A stretch of 55,529 bases of DNA from a virus (Duplodnaviria; Caudoviricetes). Position numbers and translations under genes: made by a program. Below the pieces are notes generated by a model that searched no databases, was not told the DNA's origin, and worked only from the letters and a program-made list of their open reading frames with translations. The stretch is from positions 1-55,529 of the IMG/VR virus record IMGVR_UViG_3300034104_002925; one strand, 5' to 3'. Positions 30,523-48,763 of the stretch are shown here, in pieces (position 1 is the stretch's first letter; each line of letters starts with the position of its first letter).

Positions 30523-30532
30523 GTTTTTAACG

Positions 30533-30540
30533 ATATTTAT
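30533..30540 (+). promoter_or_regulatory. putative late promoter ATATTTAT (island unit 1)
   Basis: Immediately after the MCP terminator. Confidence 0.7.
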
Positions 30541-30575
30541 TAGTATATTATGACGATTAATCACAGGAGTTTTTA

Positions 30576-31520
30576 ATGGCAGCTACATATGGAATGTCCA
30601 CACCTATAATGTCATCGGTGATGCCGAATCCTATGACTGTTCCCGTTATGTCAACAGTGATGCCGAATCCTATGACTACAACAAATACAGTTAGTTCTAT
30701 GGGTGCTCAAGGTTTACCAATGTCAAATGCTTTGCCAATTATTGTAAATGAAAATACACCAAATCTTGCAGAGATACAATCATTTCCAGTTATAGTTAGT
30801 GGTGGTGGGATTCATATGCACCAAGACCCTGTTAGTGGTCAACGATATAGAATGAATGATGAATTTCATTCAAGAATACCACAAATATTGGCTGATAGAC
30901 AATCAGGTGTTAATTCAAATACAGATACAACAGATTCGGTAACACAATATCTAAACGATTTACTTACATATACAAGTAAACCAGAAAATTTAGTTAAAGA
31001 AGTTCCAATGGAAACTCAGTCTGTTGTTACGATAAATTCAAAAGATATATTAGATTCTGCAATAGGAATAACAAATATTCAGAATAATGGTCAAACTATT
31101 ACAGCAACACAACCAAACAGAATTTCTATTTCTACAAATACTAATATTCCTGGATTGGGTAGTCAACAACAGAAAAATGAATTGCAAAAATCTTTAGAAT
31201 CTCAACTAAATTCAAGACCGCAATTATTTAGTAGAGAAACATCAACATCACAAACTACCATATTTACACAAAAAACTATGAGTAGTACAAATATGTTTTC
31301 TCCTATAAGTCAAACACAATTACAATCAATTACAACTACAACAAAAACAAATTACCCTGTCAATAATTTTTCTGTAATTGGAATTCCTGACTCTACTCAA
31401 TATCAACAAACAAATATATTTATACCAACAAATTCATTTGGCGGAATAACTAATAATAATATTTCTATTCAAAGAAATACAAATTCAATCTTACCTACCA
31501 ATAAATTTTACGATACTTAA
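30576..31520 (+). CDS. low-complexity Thr/Ser/Asn/Gln-rich hypothetical protein
   Basis: AGGAG SD; 39-nt tandem duplication encoding MSxVMPNPMT twice. Confidence 0.75.
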   Translation: MAATYGMSTPIMSSVMPNPMTVPVMSTVMPNPMTTTNTVSSMGAQGLPMSNALPIIVNENTPNLAEIQSFPVIVSGGGIHMHQDPVSGQRYRMNDEFHSRIPQILADRQSGVNSNTDTTDSVTQYLNDLLTYTSKPENLVKEVPMETQSVVTINSKDILDSAIGITNIQNNGQTITATQPNRISISTNTNIPGLGSQQQKNELQKSLESQLNSRPQLFSRETSTSQTTIFTQKTMSSTNMFSPISQTQLQSITTTTKTNYPVNNFSVIGIPDSTQYQQTNIFIPTNSFGGITNNNISIQRNTNSILPTNKFYDT

Positions 31521-31527
31521 ATAAGTT

Positions 31528-34500
31528 ATGGCGATAATAAATAGATTTCAGATACGAAGGTATAACGAGATACTTGTAGATGTACCTGCCGGAACAATAC
31601 CGGATGGTGGATTTAGTACGTTTAATTTAGATAATCCAGCTACAACAGGACCATTTGGTACAAGCGATTTTCTCGGTGTAATTAAACAATCTGTATTGAT
31701 TGGTGAAGTAATTAAAGAAGTAATTGATACAAATCCCAGAAGATTAAGACAAGATCCAATACCACCTGGACGATTTAATCAACTTACGCAAGCTGAATTT
31801 GATGCATTTTTACTAAATGGTGATATAGTTATAAATCCACTAACTCGTGGTCAAGCAGAGGTAGTGGGGTGGGTGGAATTAGGGAAATCATATCCTTCAT
31901 TTTATTATAGAGATTGTACTGTATCAGGTGGTAGTGGAAAACAACCGAAATCTGATAACTATTATGAATTGAATGAATTGCAACTATCTCTGTATAGAGT
32001 TTCTGGTCAAGGAAATACTCCATCAGCACTACAGCAAATTGGTGGGTGGAATATAAATGAAACTTATGGTAATTGGGGTGCTCGTGCATATCCAGGTCAA
32101 CAACCATTAATGTTTGCGGACTACATTCAAATCGTAACAAATGGTGGTAGATATGCGGATGACTCATTTACATATTTAACTGAGAGGACTTTATTTCAAA
32201 TACCTCTTTTGATTGCAAATAGAAATGAAAATTTTGATGGAAATAATACAACAATTTTAACTCCATCATTTTCTGATCCAACAAGTACAACCCCTACAAC
32301 AGAGAAAACAGTTTACGGGCGACTACGCCGAACCATCACAGAAGGATTTAGACCATCTTTTAAAACTAATGTTGGTCAGTGTCTTTTAATATCGACCACA
32401 GTAACTCCTCCACCTCCATCCATAACTGATGACGATGTGACAACTGAAACAGAAGAAGATCTTTTATCCGATACATATGATTATTTTGGAGAGGAAGATT
32501 TTTCGGAAGTTTTACCCGAAAATCTAGATGAAGAAGTATCAATACTTACAAATGAAGACCTTGGTATTTTGCCTTGTGAAAGGACTTTTGGATTACCAAT
32601 ACGTGTATATTCGAATGGGGTATTTGTTGCAACTGGTAGTAATTCTTATTTTGGTGCAAATATAAATTCTATGTCTGGGTCGGTTGAAACACTAGAATCT
32701 GGAAAAACTGATGTTGGTCCTGTGGACATAATATTGGAAGATTCACTTATCAGCGATGGTATACGAGACCCAAGATCAATAGCTACTAATAATGAATTTA
32801 TTCCACATGGAACCTATAAGGCACTCTTGAATAAAAATGATTGTGTTATAGAAATTCATGAAGACTTCCGCGATAAAGACGGAGACATACCGGAAGTAGT
32901 GGGTCCTATTGTTACACGATATATAGAAAATATTAGAAAAGAAATGATAAATCGTTTTATAACCAAAAATCCATTAAGATTAATAGGATATGGAACGGAT
33001 GGTTATGAATATTATAGTGATGGTAATTCTTATACTGAATTACATGGAGAATCTATTTTTGGATGTGGCTCTCCTTTTTCTATAGCAGACGTACCAGAAA
33101 TTTTTAATGAAATGTATCCTATTTCGATAAAAGATAGACGTGGTAAAACTGTTTTTGGACATGAAGAAAATGAAAATGTAACATTTTTTAGAGAAACATT
33201 TGAAAGACCAACACAACTATCAATAGAGGCACTAAAAGTATTGGATTGGTTAGGTGGTTTAGATAAAAGGTTTGTTGAAAAACGAGGAACATTATCAGAT
33301 ATGTTTAATGATTTTGTTCTTGGTGTACCCGATTTAGATTTTGCACTTGTTGGCGAAGATTCATCGGAATCAATGCTTAATGATTTAATTGCAACTACAG
33401 TAGGTGGAATTGTTGGAGCAACAGTTGCGTCATTTTTTATATCCGATACGAAAGATTATCTATCACAGATAGAGGGTAGTTCGAATTTAATACTAGCTGG
33501 TGCTTCTGTTGGTTATTCATTACTGCAAGTTATAGAATCAGAAGAAGGTGTTTATAGAAAAGATTGGTATCCAAGTAGTATAAAACCAAAACCAAGATCG
33601 ATAGCTAGATATAGGTCGTATAATTCATTTTGGAAAAGAGAAGGTATAAATAAAGTATATTATGAAACCACACCAAATGTGGATTCATCTATTATAACAA
33701 CAAATACTGATACTTTGATAGATTTTCCTGTTTGGGAGGGAAAAACTCCACGTCAGTTAAGAACTGCACAGTTTAAATTATCATATCCATCAAGGTGGAA
33801 ATCTATGATGCGACCAATTTATGAACAATTGTGGCATGATACAGATGAAATAAAACCACAAAATGTTTCTACTCGTCAATATTTGGGTGAAAACATACTT
33901 GAATTGGAACTCGGTGATTATGAAACCCATAGAAAACAATTTGGAATGTCTAAAAATTTATATGATTATATTGACGATTCTATTTCAATACGAATAGATG
34001 ACGATGTATTTTCTGATGAATCTCAACAAATTGATATATTAACAAGTATAGTCACAAATGTAAATTTTCAACTACGAGGATTTTTTGATGAAAAATTCGC
34101 AAATATAATAGGATTTAGTGTTGATCAACCCGTTACTACAATATCTAATCTGGCAAATAATATTAAAAATTTGAACGATTTGAGTAGCTATATTGTTTTA
34201 TTGGATTCTATTTTACAAACGTATTCTAGTATAATTCAATTTACAAATGATATTGAATCATCTATCAGGCGACTAGAATCTATTGGAAACAGTATTGGTA
34301 AATATATCCAAGAACATGAAAATGGATTTATGGGACCACCAAATGAATCTTTAAAACAAGAATTAATGAGTGCTGGTGAGGAGTTATTAATTAGTATATC
34401 CGAATCAGTTGTAAATTATGTTATTACGTCTGGTTTACAATGGTTGACTAATGAATTAAATAGAACAAATCCACCTAGAAGTTCATTTTCCCCAAGAAGA

Positions 34501-36501
34501 GTTTTTAAAAAAGGTGGTATTTACTTGAAATCAAAATCTGGTAACTACTTTACAAATAAACAACCATGTCCGATTTTATTTTTAGGATTTAATGACGAAG
34601 GCGTAATGTCTTCTTTTTCAGAGTATAATAAACAATTAGATTGCTTATCGACCTTAAATAAAGAAGATAAAATTGATAATCTAAAATATAGTGATAAACG
34701 AGGATTTTTGGCATCTAGTCGTAATCCAATAATGTCATCAATTCAACCAACGTTAGGTGACGTACCATATCGCAACAATTTTCAAGATATAATAAATCCT
34801 GTTAAGCAAGAAACTATACCGGTTATAAACAAGAGAATCCGTCAGTATGGTAGAAATCCATTATTGGACATATTTTATTTAAATCTTATACCCGAATCAT
34901 TTGCAAATAATTGTATTTCAAGATTTGGTTGGCCCGTTGCCCCCTATACACATAGAACATCAACACCAATGCCATATCGATTTCCAAATCAAAATGACTG
35001 GGCCGGAAATCGTCAATTTACAAAAGATTATTCAACTCCATCATATTTTCCACCACATTGGAATGAACCTGGTATAGTAGAAGGTTCTTCTGGGAAGTTT
35101 TACAAAGATTTTTCAATGTTTAAACACGGAGATCCTTTATTCTTCAATAGACAATCAAGTAATATTCTATCAGCAAAAGATAGATGGACAATGAGTATTG
35201 ACACCGTATCTGATGAAAATATTGTAGTGTTGAATGATAAAACACCAATATTGGATATTTATTTTGGTTTACTTGAAATGCACGTTAATGGATTTTCTTG
35301 GGAGGAAATAAATCATTACATAAAAAGAGCAAAGTCTGCAATAAACATTGGAATTGCAGATGTTGAATTTCTAAATGAAAAAGTTCCATCTACACTACTT
35401 TCATCAATTAATTTGATAGAATTAGAGCAATTATGGAAAATAATAGACTCTCGACTAAGTAATACGCAACTATACATATCACCAGACGGTTTTTGGTATA
35501 AAGTAGAACCAATTTCAACGGATTTAGGACAAGGTAGACTTGGTGAGGCGTTACTTGGTGCTGCTCTAAATATTGGTGTAAATGCATCTGGTGAAAAAGA
35601 ATTATCTAATAGATATAGAAGACAATTGAGTTTGGTAAATAATACAAATAAAACTATAACTGTAAAATCAACTAGAATAACATCTGAATACGGTGTATTT
35701 GATATTTTTGGTAATTCACCATCCGATATGTTTTACGTCGGTTATAATATACTAACAAATCCAAGTACAGAAGGTGTATTGGATTTTAATCAAACATTTA
35801 ATCCAATAACACTACAACCATTTACTCCAAATCCAAAAGAACAAAACTTAATTTGGCTACAGCCATTTCCGATTTGGGTATGGTTTATTCCATACGGTGC
35901 TCAACCTGGTTTTGAATATACGGCTGATCTAGAATTGATATGTGATATAGATGGTGAGGAATATGTATTTAGTAAACAACTGATTGCTAGTGTGGAAAAT
36001 AAACCATCGGTTAGAAACTGGTCGGTTGAACTATTATCTGCATCTGAGGTTATTCACTATGGTAGAATTGAAGATATATTTTCTTATGAACAAGAAAAAT
36101 TCTCAATCGGCTATGAAAATTATGCCAGAGAAAATATAATGATAGATAATGTTCAAATACAAAATGAAAGAGTTCTTGATAATAACGGTAATGACATAAC
36201 ATCTCAAATTACCGATTCTCCGAATTTCTTTATATTTGATGGGGTAGACAAAGAATTTGAAAAACAAATTTTTCCAAATCAAAAAATTGGATGGTCTGGG
36301 GGAAATAACCCAGAAGAAATTATAGATGGTCAAAATATAGTAGTGAATAAAGAATCATTGACACTCACGAATACATTTGGAAAAAATAGAATATATGTTG
36401 CAGACGCAATAATAACATATTCTTTGAATCCAAGAATAAATTCAACTTCAAGAATGGTAAAAACAACGATGACTCAATTAAGATTTTCCACAATTAGTTA
36501 A
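31528..36501 (+). CDS. giant hypothetical protein (1657 aa) with Gly-rich hydrophobic segments and C-terminal Ig/ASH-like domains
   Basis: Long ORF; LIATTVGGIVGATVASFFI; LSLVNNTNKTITVKS...FIPYGA...YTADLEL. Confidence 0.85.
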   Translation: MAIINRFQIRRYNEILVDVPAGTIPDGGFSTFNLDNPATTGPFGTSDFLGVIKQSVLIGEVIKEVIDTNPRRLRQDPIPPGRFNQLTQAEFDAFLLNGDIVINPLTRGQAEVVGWVELGKSYPSFYYRDCTVSGGSGKQPKSDNYYELNELQLSLYRVSGQGNTPSALQQIGGWNINETYGNWGARAYPGQQPLMFADYIQIVTNGGRYADDSFTYLTERTLFQIPLLIANRNENFDGNNTTILTPSFSDPTSTTPTTEKTVYGRLRRTITEGFRPSFKTNVGQCLLISTTVTPPPPSITDDDVTTETEEDLLSDTYDYFGEEDFSEVLPENLDEEVSILTNEDLGILPCERTFGLPIRVYSNGVFVATGSNSYFGANINSMSGSVETLESGKTDVGPVDIILEDSLISDGIRDPRSIATNNEFIPHGTYKALLNKNDCVIEIHEDFRDKDGDIPEVVGPIVTRYIENIRKEMINRFITKNPLRLIGYGTDGYEYYSDGNSYTELHGESIFGCGSPFSIADVPEIFNEMYPISIKDRRGKTVFGHEENENVTFFRETFERPTQLSIEALKVLDWLGGLDKRFVEKRGTLSDMFNDFVLGVPDLDFALVGEDSSESMLNDLIATTVGGIVGATVASFFISDTKDYLSQIEGSSNLILAGASVGYSLLQVIESEEGVYRKDWYPSSIKPKPRSIARYRSYNSFWKREGINKVYYETTPNVDSSIITTNTDTLIDFPVWEGKTPRQLRTAQFKLSYPSRWKSMMRPIYEQLWHDTDEIKPQNVSTRQYLGENILELELGDYETHRKQFGMSKNLYDYIDDSISIRIDDDVFSDESQQIDILTSIVTNVNFQLRGFFDEKFANIIGFSVDQPVTTISNLANNIKNLNDLSSYIVLLDSILQTYSSIIQFTNDIESSIRRLESIGNSIGKYIQEHENGFMGPPNESLKQELMSAGEELLISISESVVNYVITSGLQWLTNELNRTNPPRSSFSPRRVFKKGGIYLKSKSGNYFTNKQPCPILFLGFNDEGVMSSFSEYNKQLDCLSTLNKEDKIDNLKYSDKRGFLASSRNPIMSSIQPTLGDVPYRNNFQDIINPVKQETIPVINKRIRQYGRNPLLDIFYLNLIPESFANNCISRFGWPVAPYTHRTSTPMPYRFPNQNDWAGNRQFTKDYSTPSYFPPHWNEPGIVEGSSGKFYKDFSMFKHGDPLFFNRQSSNILSAKDRWTMSIDTVSDENIVVLNDKTPILDIYFGLLEMHVNGFSWEEINHYIKRAKSAINIGIADVEFLNEKVPSTLLSSINLIELEQLWKIIDSRLSNTQLYISPDGFWYKVEPISTDLGQGRLGEALLGAALNIGVNASGEKELSNRYRRQLSLVNNTNKTITVKSTRITSEYGVFDIFGNSPSDMFYVGYNILTNPSTEGVLDFNQTFNPITLQPFTPNPKEQNLIWLQPFPIWVWFIPYGAQPGFEYTADLELICDIDGEEYVFSKQLIASVENKPSVRNWSVELLSASEVIHYGRIEDIFSYEQEKFSIGYENYARENIMIDNVQIQNERVLDNNGNDITSQITDSPNFFIFDGVDKEFEKQIFPNQKIGWSGGNNPEEIIDGQNIVVNKESLTLTNTFGKNRIYVADAIITYSLNPRINSTSRMVKTTMTQLRFSTIS

Positions 36502-36512
36502 AAAAAATTACT

Positions 36513-36520
36513 ATATTTAT
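36513..36520 (+). promoter_or_regulatory. putative late promoter ATATTTAT (island unit 2)
   Basis: Recurrent motif. Confidence 0.7.
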
Positions 36521-36542
36521 AGTATGTGAGATTTATTGTATA

Positions 36543-36785
36543 ATGAAAGGTTATGAAATGACAGAAAAAAGAGTCGATGAGTTATTAAAATATTATGAAG
36601 CATCAAGAAATGTTTTGGATACTTCTCATAAGAATTATCCTGAAAAATTCAATAAAATTGCAACCGAAATTGCACTTGGTTTATTTGACGATACAATTTC
36701 TATCATAAAGTATATGAGCTTAAATCCAAGTCTTATACAAGAAATAAATTCTATAACAAAAGAAACTTCTAACGAGAATCAATAA
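36543..36785 (+). CDS. small helical hypothetical protein
   Basis: Fills the gap between promoter and giant gene; its stop abuts the next ATG; start at 36543 or 36558. Confidence 0.7.
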   Translation: MKGYEMTEKRVDELLKYYEASRNVLDTSHKNYPEKFNKIATEIALGLFDDTISIIKYMSLNPSLIQEINSITKETSNENQ

Positions 36786-39700
36786 ATGGCAGGACCAAAA
36801 ATACGTGCTCTTTTTGATACAACATTTGGTGGATTACCACCAAATGCTTTTAAGTATTTGGATTTAGGGCCAATAAACGTAAAAAGAAGAGAATCTAGTA
36901 ATGAATACACGGTATCTATCCAAAATCTAGGAGATTCAGACCTAGAAGTCACCAGTATGGAATTTATCAATGGTATAAATTCATTCTTGTCAGATGGATA
37001 TAATCCTGGATTAGACCAAAGTAAATCGTATGGTTTTGTTATAAGGCAACTTGTTCAGTTTCCATTTATAGTACCATCTGGTAAATTACCTGTACAAAAC
37101 AGTTTTTATAATGCATATCCTGTTTTGAAAATTTCTTATGATGGTAATGGTGTTCCTGATGATTTACTTCATAATATATTTAACTTACAAATAATATTCA
37201 ACTCAAATGATCCAACAATGGGCCAAGATGTTGATGATGGGCGCGGAAGCAAAAATCATCCTGTTTTATTTTCTGGTGGCAGATTTAATAATATAACATT
37301 TGGCAGAGTTATTGTAGAGGCGAGCCCAAAAGGAAGACTCTCTTGGGATCCAAATTCAAATTTGGTTTTTGAAAAGAATATACACGGATATATATCTACA
37401 CCAAAAATCAAAGATACAAAACTTTGGAATAATTACGCCAAAAAAAGAATATCGGATATACTAAATGGTAGTTCTAGGATTACTATATCTAGTTTTTTAA
37501 AAATGAATGATTTTCAAAATAATGGAGATTTTGATGACAATCTACCAGAAGTAAAACGAGTTTTTGATAGATTTTCAGACCCACTACCTCCATACGATTT
37601 TATGTGGCCGTATGGAGACTATTATCCATATAATGGCCTCAGAAGAACAATAGATTACGTTAGTAACAGTAGAGTTGATAAATATTTTAAAAGGTCTCGT
37701 AAATATTTTAATTGGGATGTGGATAAATCATTAGTTTTAACCGCAGACTCTTTAAGAGAATTTGGAATAAATCCAATAAATGTTGGACAGAAAAGGCAAA
37801 GGCGAGAATGGGGATTTCGTGAAAAAGTTTTGAGAGGATTTCCATACTTTTTTCCAAAGTATATATCACCATCCAAAAACTCTTCACAAGATCCTTTTAA
37901 TGTAAATATAAACACGCCATGTGGTACAGGACCTGTAATAGCTGGATTTGTTACGGCTGGTAGTGGTATATTTGGTGGTATTCCATCGTCGGCAAATATT
38001 GGATATGATTTCATAGAATCACAAAAAACCGTAAATTCTCCAACAGATTTACCACACACAAATCCTAAAACACCAACTGGTTTAATTTTTATACAAGATG
38101 AAACGGGTGCTATAGGATTTTCATTAGGTTCTGATATGAGATATATGGAAAATCCAATATTGCATAATTCAAATTTTGCAGAATCATCTTTAATTTTTGA
38201 CAAGATGCATCTTGGATCTCTTGGTATACCAAAAGCCGATTATCGTCAATTTTTAAAAGAAGGTGACCTTGTAGTGATTCAATTGGGAGTCGGACTAAAA
38301 TACTGGCACCCAGTTCTTGGTGCTGAACCAAGATATTGGGAAAATCTTTTCGGTGAAGAAGAGTTTACAAAACTTCAAAGTTCAAGAAAATCATCAACAC
38401 CAATAATAGAAACAAGCTCCACAAACACAATAGAAGATAAAACAAATAAACCACTTAAAAAGACATTCACCACTCCAGAAGGAGAGGTGCTTGAAATAGA
38501 TGTGACTAACTCATCTAATAATGATATACAATCTTCATCTGGTAGAAAAGAAAATTTCATACCACCATACGTGGACAACTGGGGAGCATATACAGATAGA
38601 CCTTCTAATAATGCAATGGAATTGGCCATAGATTATGATTTGTTTGAAAATGAAACTGAACCTGAAATATTTGATGCGACTCTAATATCGAGAGAATCAG
38701 CTGCAAGATATTTAGAAGGAATTATAAACGTTATAAATGGTGTTGTAGAAGGTGCAAAAGAAGGGGCAAGAGAAGGTACAAGATTAGGTGGTCCACTTGG
38801 TGCTATTATTGGCGCTGTTGTTGGTGCGGTTATAATGGGTGGTGCCCAAGTATATCTAATGGAAACTATGTTTTATAGAGAACGGTATGTCTTACGATCA
38901 AGATCATTAAGAGATGGTCAATATCCATATACAACATTTTATCCTATACAGGAATACCATCCTTGGTCAACCGGAACCCCGATACCAATTGACAATGGTA
39001 TGCCTTATATAATGTCAGATGTATTTTCAGTTGATACTAGAGAAAGACTTGCACCTGCACCAAAACAAATAACGGCCGCTCAATTAAGAGGAATACCGGA
39101 AGACACTTGGAGATGGAATCCATCATTAGAATGGAGTATACCAAAAGAACATCAGGACTCATTTAAAGAACTTGTTAAAGAAGTTAGAACTGATGAGGAT
39201 ACTGGTGAAACATATTTTATTGAGTATTTTAAAACTAATCCAAATAGTCCATACAGACTTAAAAAAGAAAATCAATTGGAAGAATTTCCAGGTATTAGAA
39301 ATGAGCCGGTAACACCATATACATTAAATCCTGGATCTGAGTATAAAGGACAACTTGTAACTATAAAAAATGTTAGATTTATAAATCCACCACAAAAAGA
39401 ATATCTTGTTGCGAAGGTTGCTTCCACTGAAAAATTAAAAAGATTCAAAGAAGATAGGGCAACAATTTTATCCGATTTAAATAAATGGATAAGTAGTGGT
39501 AAAGACATAAAAGAATTTAAAATTCAAATAGGTGATATACCGGAAATACAGTCACAAATACCAAAAATTTTATCAGATGTTGGTGATATTTTAAAATATG
39601 GTTTACCAACTATAAGACTCGCTATCACATTCATGGAGACCTTTTTCAAAGGAGAACTCCAAAAAATACTTGGTCCAGAAATTGTTGGTGGTATAAATAC

Positions 39701-41420: not shown

Positions 41421-41436
41421 TTTTACGATTGAATTG

Positions 41437-41444
41437 CTATTTAT
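41437..41444 (+). promoter_or_regulatory. putative late promoter CTATTTAT (island unit 3)
   Basis: Variant of the recurrent motif. Confidence 0.65.
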
Positions 41445-41472
41445 ATGATATATCATTTGTTTGAGGACTTCG

Positions 41473-42063: not shown

Positions 42064-42233
42064 ATAACAAAGAAATGTTTACAAAACACGAGATTATTGA
42101 TAAAGCAAATGAAGTAAAACTAAAAGAAAAAGAATACAATAACGTTATTAATCAAAAACCAAATGTAAAATCAGACAATATCGAAGATATAGTTGATTGG
42201 TTCAAACAAATATTACTCGTATTGAAAAAGTAA
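42060..42233 (+). CDS. small hypothetical protein (57 aa)
   Basis: ATGA overlap with the upstream stop; GGGAG SD. Confidence 0.65.
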   Translation: MNNKEMFTKHEIIDKANEVKLKEKEYNNVINQKPNVKSDNIEDIVDWFKQILLVLKK

Positions 42234-42247
42234 ATAGGTTATAATTT

Positions 42248-45200
42248 ATGGCAAAAGACATATGGTCGGTTTGTAGTTTCGTTGAAAAATACAAGTCAAC
42301 TTATAATGGTAAAGACTGGACAGACCCAAAACATAATGCATGGTCAAACTTTCCATGGGAAGATTTATCTTTAAGTCAAAAACAGTATATTAAAACTCTT
42401 TGGAATTTTTGGAATAAAGAATTTAAAGATCCTGGTAAATTCATATTCTTTGATATTATAAATTTGGCACCAACGAGTGGGGAAAATTATGGCTATCAAA
42501 CTAAACAAATATTGAATACAAGAAAAGATTTTTTTGTAAATATTCCAATTCCAATAGACCAGCAAACTAAAAAACGAGCACACGAATATGTTCCGTCAGG
42601 AGTATTTAAGCAATTACAAAGTCAACAAAAAAATTCCAATGGGAAAAAAACTGAATCCGAAATTCAAGGTATCATACTAAATAATGTAAAAATAGATGAA
42701 AATGATATAGAACATCCTGCTGAAAGTGAATTTAAACTGTCCTGGATGCGAGATTTAGTAGAACGTGGTGTAGAAGGTGTAATGGGACCATTTGTTGCGA
42801 GCTTAAAATCAGATGGATCTCCTAATAAAACTTCAGATGGAAGAGTTACTTTTAAAATAGACCAAAATTCTTTAGACCGATTTATAAATAATCGAAATGA
42901 TTATAAAAAAGCAATATGGGAAGATTGGTTACAGAGTCAACTTGATTTTGCAACAAAAGATCCAAAGGGTTATAATAATTCGCCATATCCTAAAGTTTCT
43001 CTGAAAGATTTACAGACTTTATCGAAAGATGGAAAACTATCAGAAGATGGTAAAGAACAATTTGTAATGACAGAAGTTATTTCTGGACAATTGACTTCGA
43101 ACACAAAAGGAAAAGAGGTATTTCAAAAATTGGCACTTGGTGCAAATGGAGAACCAATCTTTCGAGATGGTGTTATGGCAAAAGTCAATCCAAATTATAC
43201 CATAAGTGGGTGGATAAAAATACCTGGAATATACGGTGATAAACAATTACCTTGGCCATTTGTATGGCGATACATAGGTAGGGGAGGAATCTGGCAAAAA
43301 TCAGTATGGGAAACTTCTGGTGGCAAGGGAACTTTTATGCCCAGCGGTGTATCTGTTGTTGAAAAAATAGATATAGACGCTAAAAAACAAAATTCAAAAA
43401 ATATACCAAGTCATGTACCTTATATTGCAAACGGAACTGGGCCATCATATAGTTTTCTTGCTTTTGATGCTAGAAGTAGATTTTGGCATCATAGATACTC
43501 TACAAAAGAAATTCCCCAAAGAGAGCTATTGTTTCTTATCAGATACAAATACGGTGCAGCTGGTGCGGTTGGGGAAAGATTTGTTGCTGCATATGCCGAT
43601 CCACCAGCATTTCGTAATACATCACGTGTTACGGATGAAGTGGATAACATAAAACAATGTGGTGGTATACCATTGGAAGGAGTGACAATAAAAACAAAAT
43701 CAGGAGTTAGTAGAAAATATCAACCCTACAATGGAAATGAATTTACTAAAGATACTATATTTGATGAAAAAAAAATTTACAGATTACGTTCAAAATATAT
43801 TTGTCAAATTCATGATGCAGTTGGTTGGAATAGATTTGGTGGTGGTGATAGTGGCCATGTATTACCCGGTAGAACTGATTTAGGTACACCGTTAAAAGGA
43901 GAAGCTTTTGAAATAGTTGATTTTGATAAAGAACAAGGATATTATAGTTTTAATGGTGGAACTAGCGATAGACAGCCAATACAAGAAGGCGTGACCGATG
44001 TAACAGATGATTATAAACTCTATGAATATAAACGAGATTTTAAATTAGATGTTCAAAAAAATCATATATCTCTATGGAGACTTATTAATTTATCTAATTC
44101 AGAAAATCCCACTGGTTTAGTTGATCCAAATGACAGATTTGTCACATCTGATTCTATTATTTCAACTAATGAAATAAAAACAACATATTATAATCACGCT
44201 AAAGATTATTTGTTTAATTATCAAAATGCGTTCTATCCTGGACTTTATACTAACAAAGAGCTTCAATTTTTATATGAATTGGTATCTTATGTTTATTATG
44301 GTAGAACATCTAATTACGCAAATGGTGTTTATCAATTTGATTCTATATTTTCTTTTCCAAAAAGACAAAATAAACATAGATGGGCAGAACTCGGTGCAAC
44401 AAATTCTATTTTTCCTATACCCAATCCTGATTTATTTCCAAAAGACCAAAAGCCATTAATTGATATTGGAGATTCTGATACATATATTCCGTATCTAATG
44501 GATTACATATTATGGGCGGCACCAACAAATGAACAATTTAGAAAGGTAAAATTTTCAACTATTGAAGATACCTTCGTAAAGCGATATAAGGATATTCTGA
44601 TTAATTCTGGTAAAAATTGGATAGACATACGTTCATATCCGGTACATTTATTTGCAAAACAAATATTAGATAGTGAATCTTCTTCAAATCCAACAGTTCC
44701 TGCGTGGGTTCATTATAAGTACATATCTAGAACATTAAATTATGGTGAAAATGGTATAAATGCTGAATTAATAGACAACGATGTTTACCGAGTATTTGGT
44801 GGAAAGCGAGATACAGATGACATAGATCAAGGTAAATTAATCGCACTGCCTATGTTTGTTTTAGGTGGTAGACCGGATATTAAAAATGACGAAAAATGGG
44901 ATTCTTCGTGGGGACCTAACCCGTTTAAAATAGAAAACGGTGTTTTGACTGTTGGAAATATGGACAGTGTGTTGGATAACTGGGCAAAAAAAGAAAGATT
45001 ACATAATGGAAAATATGTTTCTGCTATGGAAATATTATTCTGGCTGAGATATAAAAGAGGGTTATCATCAGCACCCGCTCAGCGAACAATTAGGTATCCA
45101 ATAAATAAAGACTATAAAAAAATAAATTACAAATGGACTATCGATTCAAAAAATTATTGGCCAAAAGAGGCATTTATTTATTCCGAATCAATAAATACAT

Positions 45201-48200
45201 TCACTGTATCTCGTGAAACGATTGGTAAAGATGGAGAGCGTGAAATATTGGAAGACGGCGATATTTTACCAACAGAAACTCTCCACAATATTCCAATATT
45301 AACATCATATTACCATCCAATATATTCAGATGGTGGTGCAGACGAAGGTGTTTTGTTTAAAAATGCCGACCCATTGATGGATTTTGAAACGCAACAAAAA
45401 ATAAAAGGTATGGAAATAACTGCCTATACTGGGTGGAACAGTAAGTACGTTGCTCATTGGAATGGGGCGATGGAAATCCCAAAAGATTCCTTATTATCAC
45501 CACCAGTATCTGCCTATTTTTCAGACCAATATCCATCTTCTACAAGTAAACTTAATCAAGTTCATACAAAACCTTTTAAAAAAGTTCATGACTTTTATAT
45601 TTCAAATCAAAATGGTAAAAAATATGATTCATCGAAAGGTCTACTATATGGATTTAGTATCAATAAATTAATAAATACATCGGATATTCAAGCGTGGTTT
45701 CGAGCAATTAAAATGTTAGCTATACATGACTCATACGCAAGATATATTTCAGAAGGAATTACAAAACAAGAGGGAGATAACGGTAGTGTGATTCCAGTAA
45801 AAGCCGAAATAGTAAATACAACAAATAAAAATGAGCCAAAAAATACAATTATATTCATTTCAGGGGAGCCAATTGGTAATAGATATTCTCCTTCAGAAGA
45901 TTTTAAGATGGAAAATATATTACATAGACCATGGGAAGGTGTATTTGAGGGTCAACCCGAATTGAATGCTTTATTGGATGATTATTCATTGGGTACTAAA
46001 AATTGTACACCTCAATATAGATATATGAGACATATAATACAACCACTTGATTTTATGTATTTCTTTCCAAAAACAAAAGAAAATCCAAAAGGTTGGTACT
46101 CAGATGAACAATCATATAAAACTCTAAAATGGATGATCAGAATGATTCCAACAAAATCTTATACTGGGTTTGGGGTGGATACTTTTAATAAAATGGATAA
46201 ATTATCTTTAAGAGCTTTAATTTTGGGCGGATGTGTTTCTAACAATGTTGGTAAAACTCTACTAAAGTCACCAAAGAATTTTGGCATTAAAACTACAAAC
46301 GAATTAAACGTCGTCTTTCAGGCGGCATATAAAGGAGTTTGGGGTGCTGGTAAGTTTGGAAAAGTTATTTGGACTGCTAGTGCAATTAGTACAAAAATAA
46401 AAACAATTGGCGGTGCTTATTTTGAGTCTATAGGTAAGGAGGAACTATCTGTACGTGCTAAAAATCTCGAAGATTTTTTCAAATATAAATTAGATTATCC
46501 TTTGACATTTGGCAAATGGGGACTGAAACTTTTAAACGATATTAGAAACGGTGAATTTGATGAAGGTTCTATTACTTACTTTATAAAAGAAGGTGTAATA
46601 AAATTTTATGGTGACATAGTAAAAGATATTTCAAAACATGCATTTCAAGAAGCTATTGAAGAACTTGTAAGTGAAAGAAAACTTTCCAATTCGTTACAAC
46701 TCGCACGACTTGGTTCATTCGCAAATCTTGGATTAGTAATGCTTTACGAATTAATATCATGGCAAATAGATTTGGCTATAGAAAATTACAAAGGAGAGAA
46801 AAAAATAGAGGATATGTGGGCCCTTTTGAATGAAGCAACAAAAAACAATTGGGTTGAAGGTCCGTACATGGAATCAAAAGGAACAATTAGAATTCCAAAA
46901 GGTTCTGATGGAACTATTGCTGGGAATTATGATCCAAAAGAGTTAGAAAATCAAGGAATAAAAAATATACCAGCACAAACACCGTCTAGTAATGGTTTTT
47001 GGGAGGGACCTGTTCCAGAAATAGATTTGATTGAATTTGTAAATTTCCATAATAATAAATTTTATAAACCAAACGGTCTAGCAAAAACAATCGGTAAAAA
47101 TTTAAAAGAAGGGAGTTGTGAGTGTCAGTTTTTAACAAGTCTGTTTGCAGAAACACCGACGTTTAAAAGTGATTCAAATTATAGGGTAGAAGATAAAGGA
47201 ACTCCTTTTGACAGAAAAAATTGGAAAAAAGGACCTTTCATAAGACAATGGTTAGAACGTGAAAAAATAATAGATGATGCACCAACTTATTCGGATATTC
47301 CAATAACATTTGCAAAAGCGGAACGACCTGATTATAGGGTGAATAATCTTGTGTTTGATAGGCCATCCACTCAAATTAGTGATTTACAACAACCTGGTTG
47401 GGGCGCTGGTAGTCTTGGTCGTTCAAATAATATTAGAGTAAACGGTCAAGGTGGTACTGTTGCAGTTTCTATGGCAGATTGTCCTAGATTCTGGTGGCCA
47501 AATATACTTCATGTTCCAACTAGTGATGATTTGTGCCAATACATGGCAATTGATGGAAAATATCCAAGTAGAATGCCAGAAACATATGGATTGTGTGATG
47601 GTCTTACTAAACAAGATTTACAAAATAAAATTGCACTAGAACGAAACAGAAAATCAAATTATAATTTGGGCGATAATCAGTTAAGGCGATATTCTAGAAG
47701 TGGAACTAAACTTCTAAAGACAGATATACTATATTATCCAGTTGATAGATCATCTAATACAGATATTGGAAACCTACACACCGAATATAATAATGATGCA
47801 GATACTCGAAATAAAGTATTTATGGGGAATACTATAGTTTCATTACAAGGAGTTGATGGTATTGCACCACCACATGAAAGAGAAATAGTCAGATTATTTC
47901 GTATGAAGTATGGTATAGATATTGTTTTTCCAAATAATAACTGTTGTTCTATCGGTGAAGTATTGGAAGAGAACACATCAGCTGGAAGTGCATCAGCAAA
48001 TAATCTACAAAATAGACAAAATGACGCAACAAAATGTGAATATATTATCAAATTAAATGATGAACGTTTTCATAAGATTGTAAAAGAATCTTGTATCAAA
48101 AATAAAACACAGGATAATTCCCAGGAAAATGTTAATAGAGAACTGGCTAATAATACAACAAACAATATTAGAAAGCCAGATATTCGTGTAATAGACTCCG

Positions 48201-48688
48201 CAGTAATTTCTGGTTCAATTCAACTATCGATGGATTCAAGTCTTATTGGTGGTGGTTGGCCTGATAATAGAAGAAAAAAGAAATCAAGACGCAAAAATCC
48301 ATGTGTTCCTGGATGTGTAGATTGTTGTGATGAGGATAGACCAATACCACCTGGCGTTGAGGTTTCAGAAAGACAGATTGCAATTACAAATGTAGATACT
48401 ACATTTGCAAATAGTCCTTCTGCAAACCTGAATCGTTATCAGGCTATAAATAATACAATGGGAATTTTGGAAAATATCGGAAATTCATTTTCTTCAATTA
48501 TAGGTGGAATTCGAGGTTACTTTACAGAAGAAGTTAAAGAACCTAGATCAACTCCATTGGGTCCTGCAGATTCTGAAAAATCAAAAAAATATCGAGACTC
48601 TCTAAAGAAAAAACGTAGTGAGACACAACCACAACAATCAAATGAAACACTCACACAACCAAATACAAATACTACAAATACGGGATAG
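42248..48688 (+). CDS. giant hypothetical protein (2146 aa)
   Basis: Long ORF rich in Trp/Tyr/Pro; hydrophobic segment near 46700; C-terminal basic patch plus CVPGCVDCC. Confidence 0.85.
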   Translation: MAKDIWSVCSFVEKYKSTYNGKDWTDPKHNAWSNFPWEDLSLSQKQYIKTLWNFWNKEFKDPGKFIFFDIINLAPTSGENYGYQTKQILNTRKDFFVNIPIPIDQQTKKRAHEYVPSGVFKQLQSQQKNSNGKKTESEIQGIILNNVKIDENDIEHPAESEFKLSWMRDLVERGVEGVMGPFVASLKSDGSPNKTSDGRVTFKIDQNSLDRFINNRNDYKKAIWEDWLQSQLDFATKDPKGYNNSPYPKVSLKDLQTLSKDGKLSEDGKEQFVMTEVISGQLTSNTKGKEVFQKLALGANGEPIFRDGVMAKVNPNYTISGWIKIPGIYGDKQLPWPFVWRYIGRGGIWQKSVWETSGGKGTFMPSGVSVVEKIDIDAKKQNSKNIPSHVPYIANGTGPSYSFLAFDARSRFWHHRYSTKEIPQRELLFLIRYKYGAAGAVGERFVAAYADPPAFRNTSRVTDEVDNIKQCGGIPLEGVTIKTKSGVSRKYQPYNGNEFTKDTIFDEKKIYRLRSKYICQIHDAVGWNRFGGGDSGHVLPGRTDLGTPLKGEAFEIVDFDKEQGYYSFNGGTSDRQPIQEGVTDVTDDYKLYEYKRDFKLDVQKNHISLWRLINLSNSENPTGLVDPNDRFVTSDSIISTNEIKTTYYNHAKDYLFNYQNAFYPGLYTNKELQFLYELVSYVYYGRTSNYANGVYQFDSIFSFPKRQNKHRWAELGATNSIFPIPNPDLFPKDQKPLIDIGDSDTYIPYLMDYILWAAPTNEQFRKVKFSTIEDTFVKRYKDILINSGKNWIDIRSYPVHLFAKQILDSESSSNPTVPAWVHYKYISRTLNYGENGINAELIDNDVYRVFGGKRDTDDIDQGKLIALPMFVLGGRPDIKNDEKWDSSWGPNPFKIENGVLTVGNMDSVLDNWAKKERLHNGKYVSAMEILFWLRYKRGLSSAPAQRTIRYPINKDYKKINYKWTIDSKNYWPKEAFIYSESINTFTVSRETIGKDGEREILEDGDILPTETLHNIPILTSYYHPIYSDGGADEGVLFKNADPLMDFETQQKIKGMEITAYTGWNSKYVAHWNGAMEIPKDSLLSPPVSAYFSDQYPSSTSKLNQVHTKPFKKVHDFYISNQNGKKYDSSKGLLYGFSINKLINTSDIQAWFRAIKMLAIHDSYARYISEGITKQEGDNGSVIPVKAEIVNTTNKNEPKNTIIFISGEPIGNRYSPSEDFKMENILHRPWEGVFEGQPELNALLDDYSLGTKNCTPQYRYMRHIIQPLDFMYFFPKTKENPKGWYSDEQSYKTLKWMIRMIPTKSYTGFGVDTFNKMDKLSLRALILGGCVSNNVGKTLLKSPKNFGIKTTNELNVVFQAAYKGVWGAGKFGKVIWTASAISTKIKTIGGAYFESIGKEELSVRAKNLEDFFKYKLDYPLTFGKWGLKLLNDIRNGEFDEGSITYFIKEGVIKFYGDIVKDISKHAFQEAIEELVSERKLSNSLQLARLGSFANLGLVMLYELISWQIDLAIENYKGEKKIEDMWALLNEATKNNWVEGPYMESKGTIRIPKGSDGTIAGNYDPKELENQGIKNIPAQTPSSNGFWEGPVPEIDLIEFVNFHNNKFYKPNGLAKTIGKNLKEGSCECQFLTSLFAETPTFKSDSNYRVEDKGTPFDRKNWKKGPFIRQWLEREKIIDDAPTYSDIPITFAKAERPDYRVNNLVFDRPSTQISDLQQPGWGAGSLGRSNNIRVNGQGGTVAVSMADCPRFWWPNILHVPTSDDLCQYMAIDGKYPSRMPETYGLCDGLTKQDLQNKIALERNRKSNYNLGDNQLRRYSRSGTKLLKTDILYYPVDRSSNTDIGNLHTEYNNDADTRNKVFMGNTIVSLQGVDGIAPPHEREIVRLFRMKYGIDIVFPNNNCCSIGEVLEENTSAGSASANNLQNRQNDATKCEYIIKLNDERFHKIVKESCIKNKTQDNSQENVNRELANNTTNNIRKPDIRVIDSAVISGSIQLSMDSSLIGGGWPDNRRKKKSRRKNPCVPGCVDCCDEDRPIPPGVEVSERQIAITNVDTTFANSPSANLNRYQAINNTMGILENIGNSFSSIIGGIRGYFTEEVKEPRSTPLGPADSEKSKKYRDSLKKKRSETQPQQSNETLTQPNTNTTNTG

Positions 48689-48716
48689 AATATCTATTTA
48701 TATACATAATAATTTT

Positions 48717-48742
48717 AAAGGGTGTCTTATGATACCCTTTTT
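48717..48742 (+). terminator. rho-independent terminator closing the island
   Basis: AAAGGGTGTC-TTAT-GATACCCTTT followed by a T-rich tract. Confidence 0.8.
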
Positions 48743-48755
48743 ATTTTGTACAATC

Positions 48756-48763
48756 CTATTTAT
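48756..48763 (+). promoter_or_regulatory. putative late promoter CTATTTAT inside the inverted repeat ATCCTA-TTTA-TAGGAT
   Basis: Ends 5 nt before the ATG at 48769. Confidence 0.6.

What the first reader, a model, noticed from the sequence alone, without database searches (positions are those of the whole stretch)
30533..48742. 18-kb island of three parallel units: late promoter + small gene(s) + giant orphan gene
Seen: between the MCP terminator and a second terminator at 48717, one layout occurs three times: P30533 > 314 aa > 1657 aa; P36513 > ~80 aa > 1544 aa; P41437 > 196 aa + 57 aa > 2146 aa. The DNA is more AT-rich than the MCP (hand count 13/60 GC at 34141-34200 vs 29/60 at 29761-29820) and favours ATA/AGA/TTT codons. 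Each giant has internal Gly-rich hydrophobic segments and no signal peptide. Inference: an undescribed late-expressed multi-protein system, such as ejected membrane-inserting proteins or polymorphic effectors, each paired with a small chaperone or immunity partner.
Basis: partly seen in the sequence, partly recalled or inferred. Interest (0 to 1): 0.8.

Follow-up and report, generated by a model that had tools for sequence, protein, structure and literature searches.

The report
Hypervariable giant-protein cassette in T4-like phage
A freshwater T4-like phage carries, right after its capsid gene, an optional 18-kb block of three huge proteins of unknown kind with small companion genes; near-identical phages hold very different versions of the block, as expected for genes caught in an arms race with the host.

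Summary
Window 30550-48735 is an 18.2-kb insert between the gp23-type capsid gene and a 199-aa gene + PhoH. Strong hairpin terminators bound it. It holds seven co-directional genes in three units: 314+1657 aa, 80+1544 aa, 196+57+2146 aa. Two units follow an exact TATTTATA motif that is strongly enriched in intergenic DNA; the first follows a one-mismatch variant.

The three giants are not paralogues. They found no Pfam, PHROG or NCBIfam family, no PDB sequence and none of 50,697 phage records. Relatives occur only in metagenomes.

New here:
- The block is accessory. 68 distinct relatives have 35 bp to 4.6 kb at this site.
- In the nearer clade that space holds Lys-rich proteins with capsid-targeting-type leaders and hydrophobic hairpins.
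- Phages with 96-99% identical flanks carry the same seven-gene grammar at only 26-42% protein identity.
- Giants in sister cassettes carry PT-HINT autoprocessing domains. The window's giants do not.

Best reading (about 0.4): virion-delivered, membrane-active or host-targeting proteins under diversifying selection, with small partner proteins. Packaging, ejection and small-giant binding are inferred, not shown. AlphaFold gave one confident domain (giant 1, residues 1-290) with no fold match. A note elsewhere in this scan raised the leader idea on a related genome; nothing on the giants.

The parts
30492..30523 (+). Hairpin terminator after the MCP gene; left edge of the cassette
   Evidence: 14-pair stem followed by a T run. 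DNA homology with relatives ends at about 30540-30558.
30534..30541 (+). Promoter-like motif, variant TATTTATT, 42 nt before the 314-aa gene
   Evidence: The matching position in L145 holds an exact TATTTATA 45 nt before its first gene.
30576..31520 (+). 314-aa low-complexity protein (44% S+T+N+Q, no Cys, 2.5% Lys)
   Evidence: The first ~110 codons lie in the stretch 99.3% identical to L004; identity then collapses. The L145 counterpart is 274 aa with 40% S+T+N+Q.
31417..31424 (+). Exact TATTTATA inside the 3' end of the 314-aa gene, 111 nt before giant 1
31528..36501 (+). Giant 1 (1657 aa). Beta-rich N-terminal domain at 1-290, acidic linker at about 290-345, hydrophobic helix at 616-639, long helices at 612-677 and 885-980.
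   Evidence: A profile of the N-terminal domain finds 62 clusters in 1.84 billion proteins. In nearly all of them the match starts at residues 1-3.
36514..36521 (+). Exact TATTTATA, 29 nt before the 80-aa gene
36543..36785 (+). 80-aa protein (the conserved start is probably the ATG at 36558). Its stop codon abuts the ATG of giant 2.
   Evidence: Counterparts: 35% identity in L004 and 34% in L145.
36786..41420 (+). Giant 2 (1544 aa). Conserved blocks at about 190-530, 700-900 and 1000-1350. Gly-zipper hydrophobic segments at 664-696 and 1044-1077. Pro-rich linker at about 1355-1385.
41438..41445 (+). Exact TATTTATA, 35 nt before the 196-aa gene
   Evidence: The same placement is found in L145.
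41473..42063 (+). 196-aa Lys-rich protein (15.3% Lys, pI 9.2) with the leader MKLSSRKQLLQE
   Evidence: The leader has the same type as those of the Alt-like ART (26362) and the 13159 gene. Counterparts in L106 and L145 keep the leader.
42060..42233 (+). 57-aa Lys-rich protein; its start overlaps the stop of the 196-aa gene (ATGA)
   Evidence: 71- and 73-aa genes sit at the same position in L106 and L145.
42248..48688 (+). Giant 3 (2146 aa, pI 8.5). Cys-rich basic stretch near 2000-2040; weak hydrophobic segment at 1485-1503.
48695..48764 (+). Right edge: TATTTATA (48695), hairpin terminator (48717-48740), TATTTATA (48757)
   Evidence: Homology with all relatives resumes at 48709-48756.
48769..49368 (+). 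Flank, not part of the cassette: 199-aa protein with an N-terminal membrane helix, followed by PhoH (49377-50099)

Best explanation
What it is (well supported): an accessory seven-gene cassette, shuffled by recombination, that sits in an insertion hotspot between the major capsid gene and the 199-aa/PhoH genes of an uncultured freshwater T4-like myophage. It is built of three transcription units, each made of small gene(s) followed by a giant. The three giants belong to three unrelated families known only from metagenomes and uncultured-virus contigs. Phages whose flanking genes are almost identical carry gene-for-gene counterparts of the cassette that have diverged to 26-42% protein identity. 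Most relatives have no giants at this site.

How it most likely works (inferred): the cassette is transcribed with the structural genes. Its products are delivered with the virion, probably packed in or on the head. On infection they act on the host envelope or on host defences. The hydrophobic helical hairpins would insert into membrane. The small proteins would act as partners: the Lys-rich 196-aa protein carries the same protease-type leader as the packaged Alt-like enzyme, and the 80-aa protein is translationally coupled to giant 2. Diversifying selection by hosts would maintain many old alleles, which are exchanged by recombination at the conserved edges. In some alleles a HINT domain would cut the giant.
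For: Shown:
- Context is a T4-type head module: portal, protease, bS21, Alt-like ART, scaffold, MCP, then [cassette], then the 199-aa gene, PhoH, an adaptor-like gene and the sheath.
- The site is a hotspot. 86 related loci (68 distinct) hold both MCP and PhoH. The nearer clade (MCP >=75% identity) has 22 distinct loci with MCP-to-PhoH gaps of 736-4563 bp. The farther clade has 46 with 35-2445 bp, median 86 bp. The window has 18.9 kb.
- The edges are sharp. L004 is 99.3% identical over 8685 nt up to window 30905; beyond that only short patches at 69-79% nt remain, and giant 1 is 33% identical in protein. L145 is 96.3% identical up to 30558, with MCP 99% in protein. L084 and L085 have the 199-aa protein and PhoH 100% identical in protein, but giant 3 at only 29-30%.
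- The grammar is the same in L145: 274 aa, 1545 aa (giant 1 family, 27-38%), 94 aa (34%), 1130 aa (giant 2 family, 30-38%), 214 aa (26%, leader kept), 73 aa, 2017 aa (patches of giant 3, E 1.5e-7). TATTTATA precedes units 1 and 3 there too.
- In relatives without giants the site holds Lys-rich (10-15% Lys) proteins of 180-480 aa. 12 of 13 sampled have hydrophobic segments and 10 of 13 have two. Their N-termini resemble the leaders of the ART, the scaffold and the 13159 gene. One of them is a gene of the isolate Microcystis phage Mel-JY01.
- The 196-aa protein has such a leader and 15.3% Lys.
- Hydrophobic segments keep their position within each giant family: giant 1, 6 of 11; giant 2, 8 of 16 and 8 of 16; giant 3, 4 of 6.
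- PT-HINT scores above Pfam's cut-off in giants of sister cassettes: the L113 giant-1-like protein, the last L113 giant (two copies) and the L106 giant at the giant 3 position. It also does so in 4 of 50 other carriers of the giant 1 N-terminal domain.

[quoted passage not shown] Phage proteins encoded among virion genes are predicted to be packaged and injected (PMC5512222, passages read).
Against: - None of the three giants has the (I/L)xE leader at residues 7-30.
- The conserved N-terminus of giant 1 (aromatic-K-E at residues 12-14) is modelled as a strand of the folded domain, and several of the ~50 family N-termini printed lack the Glu (for example P0060, P0065, P0080, P0088, P0095). It is therefore not an obvious cleavable signal.
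- Giants 1 and 2 are acidic with low Lys (pI 4.8 and 5.2; 4-5% Lys). In that respect they resemble the MCP, sheath and fibre proteins, not the Lys-rich head-internal proteins of this window.
- The leader test is weak: 23 of 37 gap ORFs against 98 of 241 controls match a loose pattern (p = 0.02).
- The hydrophobic segments are absent from 5 of 11 giant 1 relatives and from all 8 short giant 2 forms at the first position. The window's own giant 3 is below threshold.
- The window's giants have no HINT domain.
- No virion, expression or binding data exist.
- 5347 residues of giants is a large load for a head if they are packed in many copies.
Confidence: 0.4

Rival explanations
1. The giants are external virion appendages: optional head, neck or accessory fibres or adhesins. 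They would attach through the conserved N-terminal domain and recognise variable host surface structures. The small genes would be assembly chaperones.
For: - The allelic divergence between near-identical phages is extreme, as is typical of receptor-binding proteins.
- The giant 1 N-terminal domain is conserved, always starts at Met1, and sits on proteins of 400-1852 aa with differing C-terminal parts. This is the anchor-plus-variable-tip plan of fibres.
- Giants 1 and 2 are acidic and low in Lys, like the structural proteins of this window.
- Giant 2 has a Pro-rich linker.
- The N-terminal domain of the L113 allele has an insert of Asp-rich Ca-binding-type repeats (the motif name is recalled).
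- A 1400-aa protein with a fibre-like N-terminus sits after the MCP in a more distant clade (L023/L024).
Against: - The models show long hydrophobic helical hairpins and helical bundles, with no collagen, beta-helix or other repeat.
- The window already has a fibre module at 784-10100.
- Most relatives lack the giants, and the same site otherwise holds Lys-rich proteins with leaders.
- The small genes lie upstream of the giants, whereas fibre chaperones as I recall them lie downstream.
Confidence: 0.25
2. The giants are non-virion late proteins that act inside the infected cell or its membrane, for example in superinfection exclusion, envelope remodelling, lysis timing or blocking abortive-infection defences.
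For: - The genes are accessory and hypervariable.
- Membrane-type segments are present.
- The giants have no packaging leader.
- The neighbouring 199-aa gene also has an N-terminal membrane helix.
Against: - The cassette is embedded between head and neck genes and shares their intergenic motif.
- The giants are very large for exclusion or lysis factors.
- The 196-aa protein carries a cargo-type leader.
- HINT autoprocessing in sister alleles is, as I recall, typical of exported or delivered proteins.
Confidence: 0.17
3. The cassette is a true polymorphic toxin-immunity system: the giants are toxins with exchangeable killing tips and the small genes are cognate immunity proteins.
For: - PT-HINT domains occur in sister alleles. 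One of them (L106, HINT at 1377-1510 of 1678 aa) has a ~170-aa tail after the HINT.
- The N-terminal domain is conserved while the remainder varies.
- Small and giant genes co-occur.
Against: - No toxin domain was found in any of the window's giants or in the 28 sister proteins scanned by name.
- In 4 of the 7 proteins with PT-HINT above cut-off, only about 20-45 residues follow the HINT; a fifth (the L113 last giant) ends about 6 residues after its second HINT.
- The window's giants have no HINT.
- Divergence covers the whole protein.
- The small genes are upstream, and one of them looks like a packaged protein.
- A lytic phage has no obvious need for self-immunity.
Confidence: 0.08
4. The cassette is selfish cargo of a mobile element that targets the site after the MCP gene, with no role in infection.
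For: Zn-finger proteins sit directly after the MCP in L012, L027, L058, L069, L073 and L120. Their nuclease-type (REase_MTES_1575) and Mom-like matches are all below Pfam's cut-off; their DUF7487 matches are above it. In L012 such a gene heads an island that contains a giant-1-like gene.
Against: - The window's cassette has no such gene.
- The giants keep long open frames and many invariant residues across 30-75% identity, which indicates purifying selection on function.
- Composition matches the host phage.
- The exact allele is found in 20 lake-water runs at half or more of the sampled words.
Confidence: 0.05

Closest known systems
T4 internal proteins and Alt (capsid-targeting-sequence cargo; hyperplastic IP loci of T-even phages)
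   Same: - T4-type head module.
- A site whose content differs sharply between close relatives.
- Neighbours and site-mates with short N-terminal leaders ending in hydrophobic-x-Glu, and with high Lys.
- An Alt-like ART with such a leader lies 3 kb upstream.
- By the review passages read, the T4 IPs are a diverse anti-defence set that share only the CTS (PMC3012670).
   Different: - T4 IPs are small (roughly 10-20 kDa as I recall). Here the main products are 1544-2146 aa, acidic or near neutral, and lack the leader.
- Only the 196-aa protein fits the IP pattern.
- The locus position (after gp23) differs from T4.
- Packaging has not been tested.
Polyvalent proteins of phages and conjugative elements (Iyer et al. 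2017, PMC5512222; passages read)
   Same: - Very large phage proteins encoded among virion genes, predicted to be packaged and injected in the first moments of infection.
- Autoproteolytic processing is a theme of that family.
   Different: - Polyvalent proteins are defined by 2-15 recognisable domains of disparate activity. No known domain was found in the window's giants.
- Processing in that paper is mainly by metallopeptidase domains. Here the only processing domain is HINT, and only in sister alleles.
Polymorphic toxin systems, including the phage MuF family (Jamet et al. 2017, PMC5576092; search listing and start of abstract only)
   Same: - A conserved N-terminal module with varied downstream parts.
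- PT-HINT in sister alleles.
- Small adjacent genes.
- Strong allelic diversity.
   Different: - No MuF domain and no toxin domain.
- The small genes are upstream.
- Variation is not confined to the C-terminal tip.
- The carrier appears to be a lytic T4-like phage, not a temperate one.
Ejection or pilot proteins and tape-measure proteins with hydrophobic Gly-rich segments (T7 gp14-16, P22 ejection proteins; recalled)
   Same: - Large, helix-rich proteins with hydrophobic segments, thought to enter the host envelope.
- The Lys-rich site-mates in relatives give weak PHROG hits to the hydrophobic part of tape-measure families (E 1.4e-6 to 5e-3).
   Different: - The window's giants gave no sequence or fold match to any of these.
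- A contractile-tailed phage has its own tape measure and needs no extra conduit.
- Those proteins are core genes, whereas these are optional.

Membership tests
T4-type capsid-targeted internal proteins | N-terminal leader of about 10 residues ending in (I/L)-x-Glu, removed by the prohead protease (cleavage rule recalled) | tested here: not met
   Giants 1-3, the 314-aa protein and the 80-aa protein have no (I/L)xE ending at residues 7-30; the 57-aa protein has one only at residue 23. Only the 196-aa protein has a leader of the ART type (MKLSSRKQLLQE), like the ART, the scaffold and the 13159 gene. By sequence pattern the feature is therefore met by one of the seven products. Cleavage itself is not testable here.
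T4-type capsid-targeted internal proteins | Small, basic, Lys-rich | tested here: not met
   196 aa: 15.3% Lys, pI 9.2. 57 aa: 19.3% Lys. The giants are 1544-2146 aa with 4.2-8.6% Lys and pI 4.8-8.5.
T4-type capsid-targeted internal proteins | Present inside the mature head and ejected | not testable with these tools
   No proteome or particle data. No RNA run is listed (see Tried and rejected).
Polyvalent proteins (Iyer et al. 2017) | Two or more recognisable domains of disparate biochemical activity in one polypeptide | tested here: not met
   No Pfam, PHROG or NCBIfam family at E <= 0.001 in any giant. PDB profile searches found nothing below E 0.2.
Polyvalent proteins (Iyer et al. 2017) | Encoded among virion or packaging genes | tested here: met
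   The cassette lies between the MCP and the PhoH/adaptor-like/sheath genes.
Polymorphic toxin systems | Pre-toxin HINT or other releasing domain followed by a C-terminal toxin domain | tested here: not met
   The window's giants have no HINT. Sister alleles have PT-HINT above cut-off (30.7-81.3 bits against 27.7), but no toxin family follows it.
Polymorphic toxin systems | Conserved N-terminal trafficking domain with variable remainder | tested here: met
   This holds for giant 1 only. The N-terminal domain occurs in 62 clusters of 70-1852 aa and starts at Met1. The C-terminal parts fall into several unrelated groups.
Polymorphic toxin systems | Immunity gene immediately downstream of the toxin | tested here: not met
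   The small genes precede the giants. Giant 3 is followed directly by the terminator.
MuF phage polymorphic toxins | N-terminal MuF (head morphogenesis) domain | tested here: not met
   No Pfam hit of that family in any cassette protein.
Tail fibres / receptor-binding proteins | Fibrous repeat, beta-helix or trimeric coiled-coil shaft with a distal binding domain | tested here: inconclusive
   The models are low in confidence outside giant 1 residues 1-290 (mean pLDDT 48.7 and 50.0). No fibre family was found by sequence. The fold searches were dominated by helical hairpins.

The most novel reading that the evidence does not exclude
A polymorphic giant-effector system borne by a lytic T4-like phage. 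Three unrelated giant proteins would be loaded into the capsid through small partner proteins. One partner carries the capsid-targeting leader that the giants lack. The giants would be ejected with the DNA, insert their hydrophobic hairpins into the host envelope, and there disable host barriers. Some alleles would cut themselves with a HINT domain. Whole cassettes or single units would be swapped between otherwise identical phages by recombination at the capsid-gene terminator and the downstream promoter, giving a phage population a library of interchangeable 'warheads'.
Probability: 0.2. Interest if true: 0.85.

Novelty: new variant of a known kind. Interest (0 to 1): 0.64.

Why it matters
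Hypervariable accessory loci in virulent phages are where host range and counter-defence are decided, and most known examples encode small proteins. Here about a tenth of a ~165-kb genome (size implied by the 33% completeness estimate) is spent on three proteins of 1544-2146 aa that resemble nothing described. The proteins are nevertheless conserved as a seven-gene grammar across alleles as different as 26-42% identity, inside phages with 96-99% identical flanks.

That pattern points to strong, long-lasting diversifying selection on very large proteins. It also defines clean natural allele swaps that could be used to find the selective agent.

The work also flags three things beyond the giants themselves:
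- A likely cargo locus (Lys-rich, leader-bearing, hairpin proteins) in a whole clade of freshwater and marine T4-like phages, including one isolate.
- A new N-terminal domain family (62 clusters).
- HINT autoprocessing in structural-module giants of lytic phages.

Tried and rejected
**Paralogy of the three giants.** BLASTP and profile-profile comparison found nothing (best E 0.078, probability <1%). Rejected: the 'three parallel units' share a layout, not ancestry.

**Known families.**
- Pfam, PHROG and NCBIfam on all seven products gave only sub-threshold noise: DUF5689 E 0.036, GASA 0.045, YopE_N 0.073, phrog_909 0.0027.
- PDB profile searches found nothing.
- tblastn against 50,697 phage records gave no match for any giant.
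- The ESM Atlas gave no usable hit for giants 1 and 2.

**Structures.**
- Giant 1 residues 1-1200 had mean pLDDT 48.7, and giant 2 residues 180-1350 had 50.0.
- The fold searches returned only generic helical-hairpin matches (Z <= 7.3) or Foldseek E > 0.001: PDB Foldseek, VIA wide, BFVD and VIA second look.
I therefore make no claim that its fold is new.
- Giant 3 was not folded.

**Small-giant binding.** One complex-prediction job tested the 80-aa protein against giant 2 residues 190-1090. It returned 'no answer' (score 0.00), which is no evidence either way.

**Expression.** The look-up of sequencing runs listed no RNA holder, which is no evidence on expression. Read laying was not used, since only contigs were on offer.

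**Metagenome scan.** The metagenome-contig scan with the giant 1 profile found no relative.

**Compositional foreignness.** Rejected.

**Cleavage signal in giants 1 and 3.** I considered the aromatic-x-Glu at residues 12-14 of giants 1 and 3 and of the 80-aa protein as a possible cleavage site. This is post hoc, the Glu is not universal in the family, and the stretch is modelled as a beta strand. It remains a lead only.

**Limits.** Supplements of the papers were not opened. Those of PMC5512222 list domain architectures that might include relatives of these proteins. A search for 'Mel-JY01' found no paper. I ran no literature search aimed at the giants themselves, so I do not claim they are unpublished. 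The claim is only that no family library, isolate-phage record or PDB entry searched here matches them.

Full report
**Setting.** The window is a whole IMG/VR record: a 55.5-kb fragment that CheckV estimates at 33% complete. It comes from a T4-like myophage. It holds a gp20-type portal (21142-23043), a prohead-protease region, a bS21 gene, an Alt-like ADP-ribosyltransferase (26362-27441), a scaffold, a gp23-type capsid gene (28800-30467), PhoH (49377-50099), an adaptor-like gene and the start of a sheath gene. The nearest isolates by capsid protein are Microcystis phage Mel-JY01 (70%) and Flavobacterium phage immuto (57%). The exact island sequence is held by 24 lake-water DNA runs, 20 of them with at least half of the sampled words.

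**The observation.** They are packed tightly on one strand.
- The two flanking hairpins are the strongest intergenic + strand terminator-like sites in the region.
- The proposed promoters are copies of TATTTATA on the coding strand. The copies at 36514 and 41438 are exact; the copy at 30534 is a one-mismatch variant.
- The 8-mer and its complement occur 18 times against 6.5 expected. Of the ten copies in the gene-sense orientation, eight lie in the 4.1% of the window that is intergenic. These precede fibre, head, neck and sheath genes.
- The signal is therefore real. That it marks late genes is inferred.
- The island's low GC is simply that of the genome. The capsid gene is the GC-rich outlier.
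- Hydrophobic Gly-rich segments are clear in giants 1 and 2 and marginal in giant 3.

**The giants are three different things.** Pairwise BLASTP and profile-profile comparison of the three family alignments show no relationship. Each giant has its own family in metagenomes:
- Giant 1 has 15 relatives at 30-75% identity.
- Giant 2 has 24 hits, one of them a 100%-identical fragment of giant 2 itself.
- Giant 3 has 5 relatives.

Many columns are invariant, so these are genes under constraint. None matches Pfam, PHROG, NCBIfam, PDB sequences or any of 50,697 deposited phage genomes. Relatives of the different giants report the same 'longest contig' lengths: seven shared by giants 1 and 2, and two shared with giant 3. 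This suggested, but did not prove, that they travel together.

**The site is a hotspot and the cassette is optional.** I scanned the viral contig collection with the capsid protein and with PhoH and ran tblastn of all cassette proteins on the 142 loci then in hand.
- 86 loci (68 distinct) hold both flanking genes.
- In the farther clade the capsid gene is followed by PhoH after a median of 86 bp.
- In the nearer clade (capsid >=75% identical; 22 distinct loci) the distance is 0.7-4.6 kb. In the window it is 18.9 kb.
- The 10-kb flank limit hides longer islands from this count. Giants were found in L004, L012, L084/L085, L106, L109 (= G001 = L145), L113 (= G002), and as a trace in L110.
- DNA homology between the window and every relative stops at 30540-30558 (30905 in L004) and resumes at 48709-48756.

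**Near-identical phages carry very different cassettes.**
- L004 matches the window at 99.3% over 8685 nt, through the capsid gene and the first ~110 codons of the 314-aa gene. After that only short patches at 69-79% nucleotide identity remain. Its giant 1 is 33% identical, its 87-aa gene 35%, and the start of its giant 2 is 42%.
- On the other side, L084 and L085 encode a 199-aa protein and PhoH that are 100% identical to the window's, next to a giant 3 of only 29-30% identity.
- Contig G001 has a capsid protein 99% identical to the window's and a 17-kb island with the same order of genes: 274 aa (low complexity), 1545 aa, 94 aa, 1130 aa, 214 aa, 73 aa, 2017 aa, plus an extra 226-aa gene. Each is the positional counterpart of a window gene at 26-38% identity. 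For giant 3 the similarity is only in patches (E 1.5e-7).
- TATTTATA precedes units 1 and 3 and the 199-aa gene there as well.

So the small genes do co-occur with their giants, and the seven-gene grammar is older than the alleles. This pattern, old alleles in young backgrounds with breakpoints at the conserved edges, is what diversifying or frequency-dependent selection with recombination produces.

**What else lives at the site.** In nearer relatives without giants the space holds one to three proteins of 180-480 aa.
- They are Lys-rich (10-15% Lys). Most start with a basic stretch followed by hydrophobic-x-Glu, for example ...SLKYLLNEV or ...RRLFEDDE.
- 12 of 13 sampled have hydrophobic segments, and 10 of 13 have two.
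- One is the 241-aa gene after the capsid gene of the isolate Mel-JY01.
- Two give weak PHROG hits to the hydrophobic part of tape-measure families.
- Within the window, leaders of the same type head the Alt-like ART (MIKLKTILFE), the 13159 gene, the scaffold, and the cassette's 196-aa protein (MKLSSRKQLLQE). No other cassette product has one. The 196-aa protein is also Lys-rich (15.3%) like the head-module proteins upstream.
- My loose pattern test was only modestly significant: 23 of 37 against 98 of 241, p = 0.02.
- By the review passages I read, T4 internal proteins are a diverse anti-defence set sharing only a capsid targeting sequence, and their lysines contact the packaged DNA (PMC3012670).

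The site therefore looks like a cargo locus. The giants themselves do not carry the tag, and giants 1 and 2 are acidic and low in Lys like external structural proteins. This is the main reason my confidence in the delivery model stays near 0.4 and the external-appendage rival gets 0.25.

**Anatomy of the giants.**
- AlphaFold with the family alignments gave low overall confidence: mean pLDDT 48.7 for giant 1 residues 1-1200 and 50.0 for giant 2 residues 180-1350.
- One clearly confident part emerged: a beta-rich domain at giant 1 residues 1-290. Both models also show long helical hairpins at the hydrophobic segments and a second helical bundle.
- Six fold searches found nothing beyond generic helices. 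The N-terminal domain was never searched on its own.
- A profile of that domain run against 1.84 billion representative proteins finds only 62 clusters. The domain is nearly always at Met1, with a conserved M-[AP]-I-[IF]-x-R-[FY]-x-I-x-R-[YF]-K-E start. The proteins range from 70 to 1852 aa, some surely truncated, and their remainders fall into several unrelated groups.
- Giant 2 has long and short forms. The short forms lack the first 190 residues and the variable hydrophobic and helical inserts.
- Hydrophobic segments keep their alignment position within each family but are not universal.

**HINT domains in sister alleles.**
- Scanning 50 carriers of the giant 1 N-terminal domain found PT-HINT in four.
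- A targeted scan placed PT-HINT above Pfam's cut-off in several proteins: at the C-terminal end of the L113 giant-1-like protein and three others, twice in the last giant of the L113 island, and at 1377-1510 of the 1678-aa giant that occupies the giant 3 position in L106. The L106 giant has about 170 residues after the HINT.
- A giant 3 relative (P0053) ends in a homologous domain: weak in Pfam, but phmmer E 8e-22 to the L113 protein.
- The window's own giants have none.
- HINT domains cut or splice polypeptides. Their presence shows that members of these families are modular and at least sometimes self-processing, as in secreted polymorphic toxins. No toxin domain, no downstream immunity gene and no tip-restricted variation were found, so I do not file the cassette under that system.

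**Verdict.** The finding is real and more interesting than a list of orphans. It is an optional, hypervariable, seven-gene cassette of three unrelated giant proteins and their small companions. It sits at a capsid-proximal hotspot that otherwise holds probable capsid cargo. Its function is not established.
- The best-supported model is delivery with the virion and action on the host envelope or defences.
- External appendages are the main rival.

Virion proteomics with protease shaving would separate the two in one experiment.

Noticed in passing
L012:11765-13144; L027:11764-13278; L058:3769-4974; L069:11755-13710; L073:11773-12843; L120:876-2108: In several relatives the first gene after the capsid gene is a C2H2/ROS-MucR-type Zn-finger protein. 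It carries either weak, sub-threshold REase_MTES_1575 and Mom-like matches or a DUF7487 match above cut-off. These may be homing-endonuclease-like genes, and they mark the same site as an insertion hotspot. In L012 such a gene heads a 9.7-kb island that holds a giant-1-like gene.
   Followed up: partly
window 48769-49368: The 199-aa protein that flanks the cassette has one N-terminal membrane helix (residues 6-32) and a ~165-aa C-terminal domain. It is present only in the nearer clade, always directly before PhoH. The architecture recalls the T4 holin (recalled), but no family matched.
   Followed up: no
window 48695-48764: An exact TATTTATA lies between the stop of giant 3 and the terminator hairpin, and a second one lies after the hairpin before the 199-aa gene. 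A promoter-like site placed just upstream of a terminator is unexplained.
   Followed up: no
window 36823-36846: A 10-pair GC-containing hairpin followed by a T-rich tail lies 37 nt inside the coding region of giant 2. It could be chance or could attenuate the unit.
   Followed up: no
L113:47-946 (N-terminal domain of the giant-1-like protein): The domain carries an insert of about 60 residues with Asp-rich DxDxDG-type repeats (...NNDGIPDY...DVDNDGTYD...). They resemble Ca-binding thrombospondin-type-3 repeats (name recalled), which hints at an extracellular or surface location for that allele.
   Followed up: no
L001:21742-22467 (Microcystis phage Mel-JY01, WWT39316.1) and about 12 metagenomic counterparts: Lys-rich proteins of 180-480 aa with a basic N-terminal leader and one or two hydrophobic helices occupy the capsid-PhoH gap in the nearer clade. 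They are candidate capsid cargo or membrane-active ejected proteins and could be tested in an isolate.
   Followed up: partly
window 13159-15444: The 761-aa Lys-rich protein has a leader (MSKLVESILKE) and a hydrophobic hairpin at residues 289-323. It thus shares the leader-plus-hairpin theme of the proteins found at the capsid-PhoH site in relatives.
   Followed up: partly
window 1-55529, + strand: TATTTATA and close variants (TATTTAT[TCG]) precede many structural genes: 4390, 12626, 18428, 21102, 23054, 27617, 52768 and 53109. This is likely the phage's own promoter element, and it reads as the reverse complement of the T4 late motif as recalled.
   Followed up: partly
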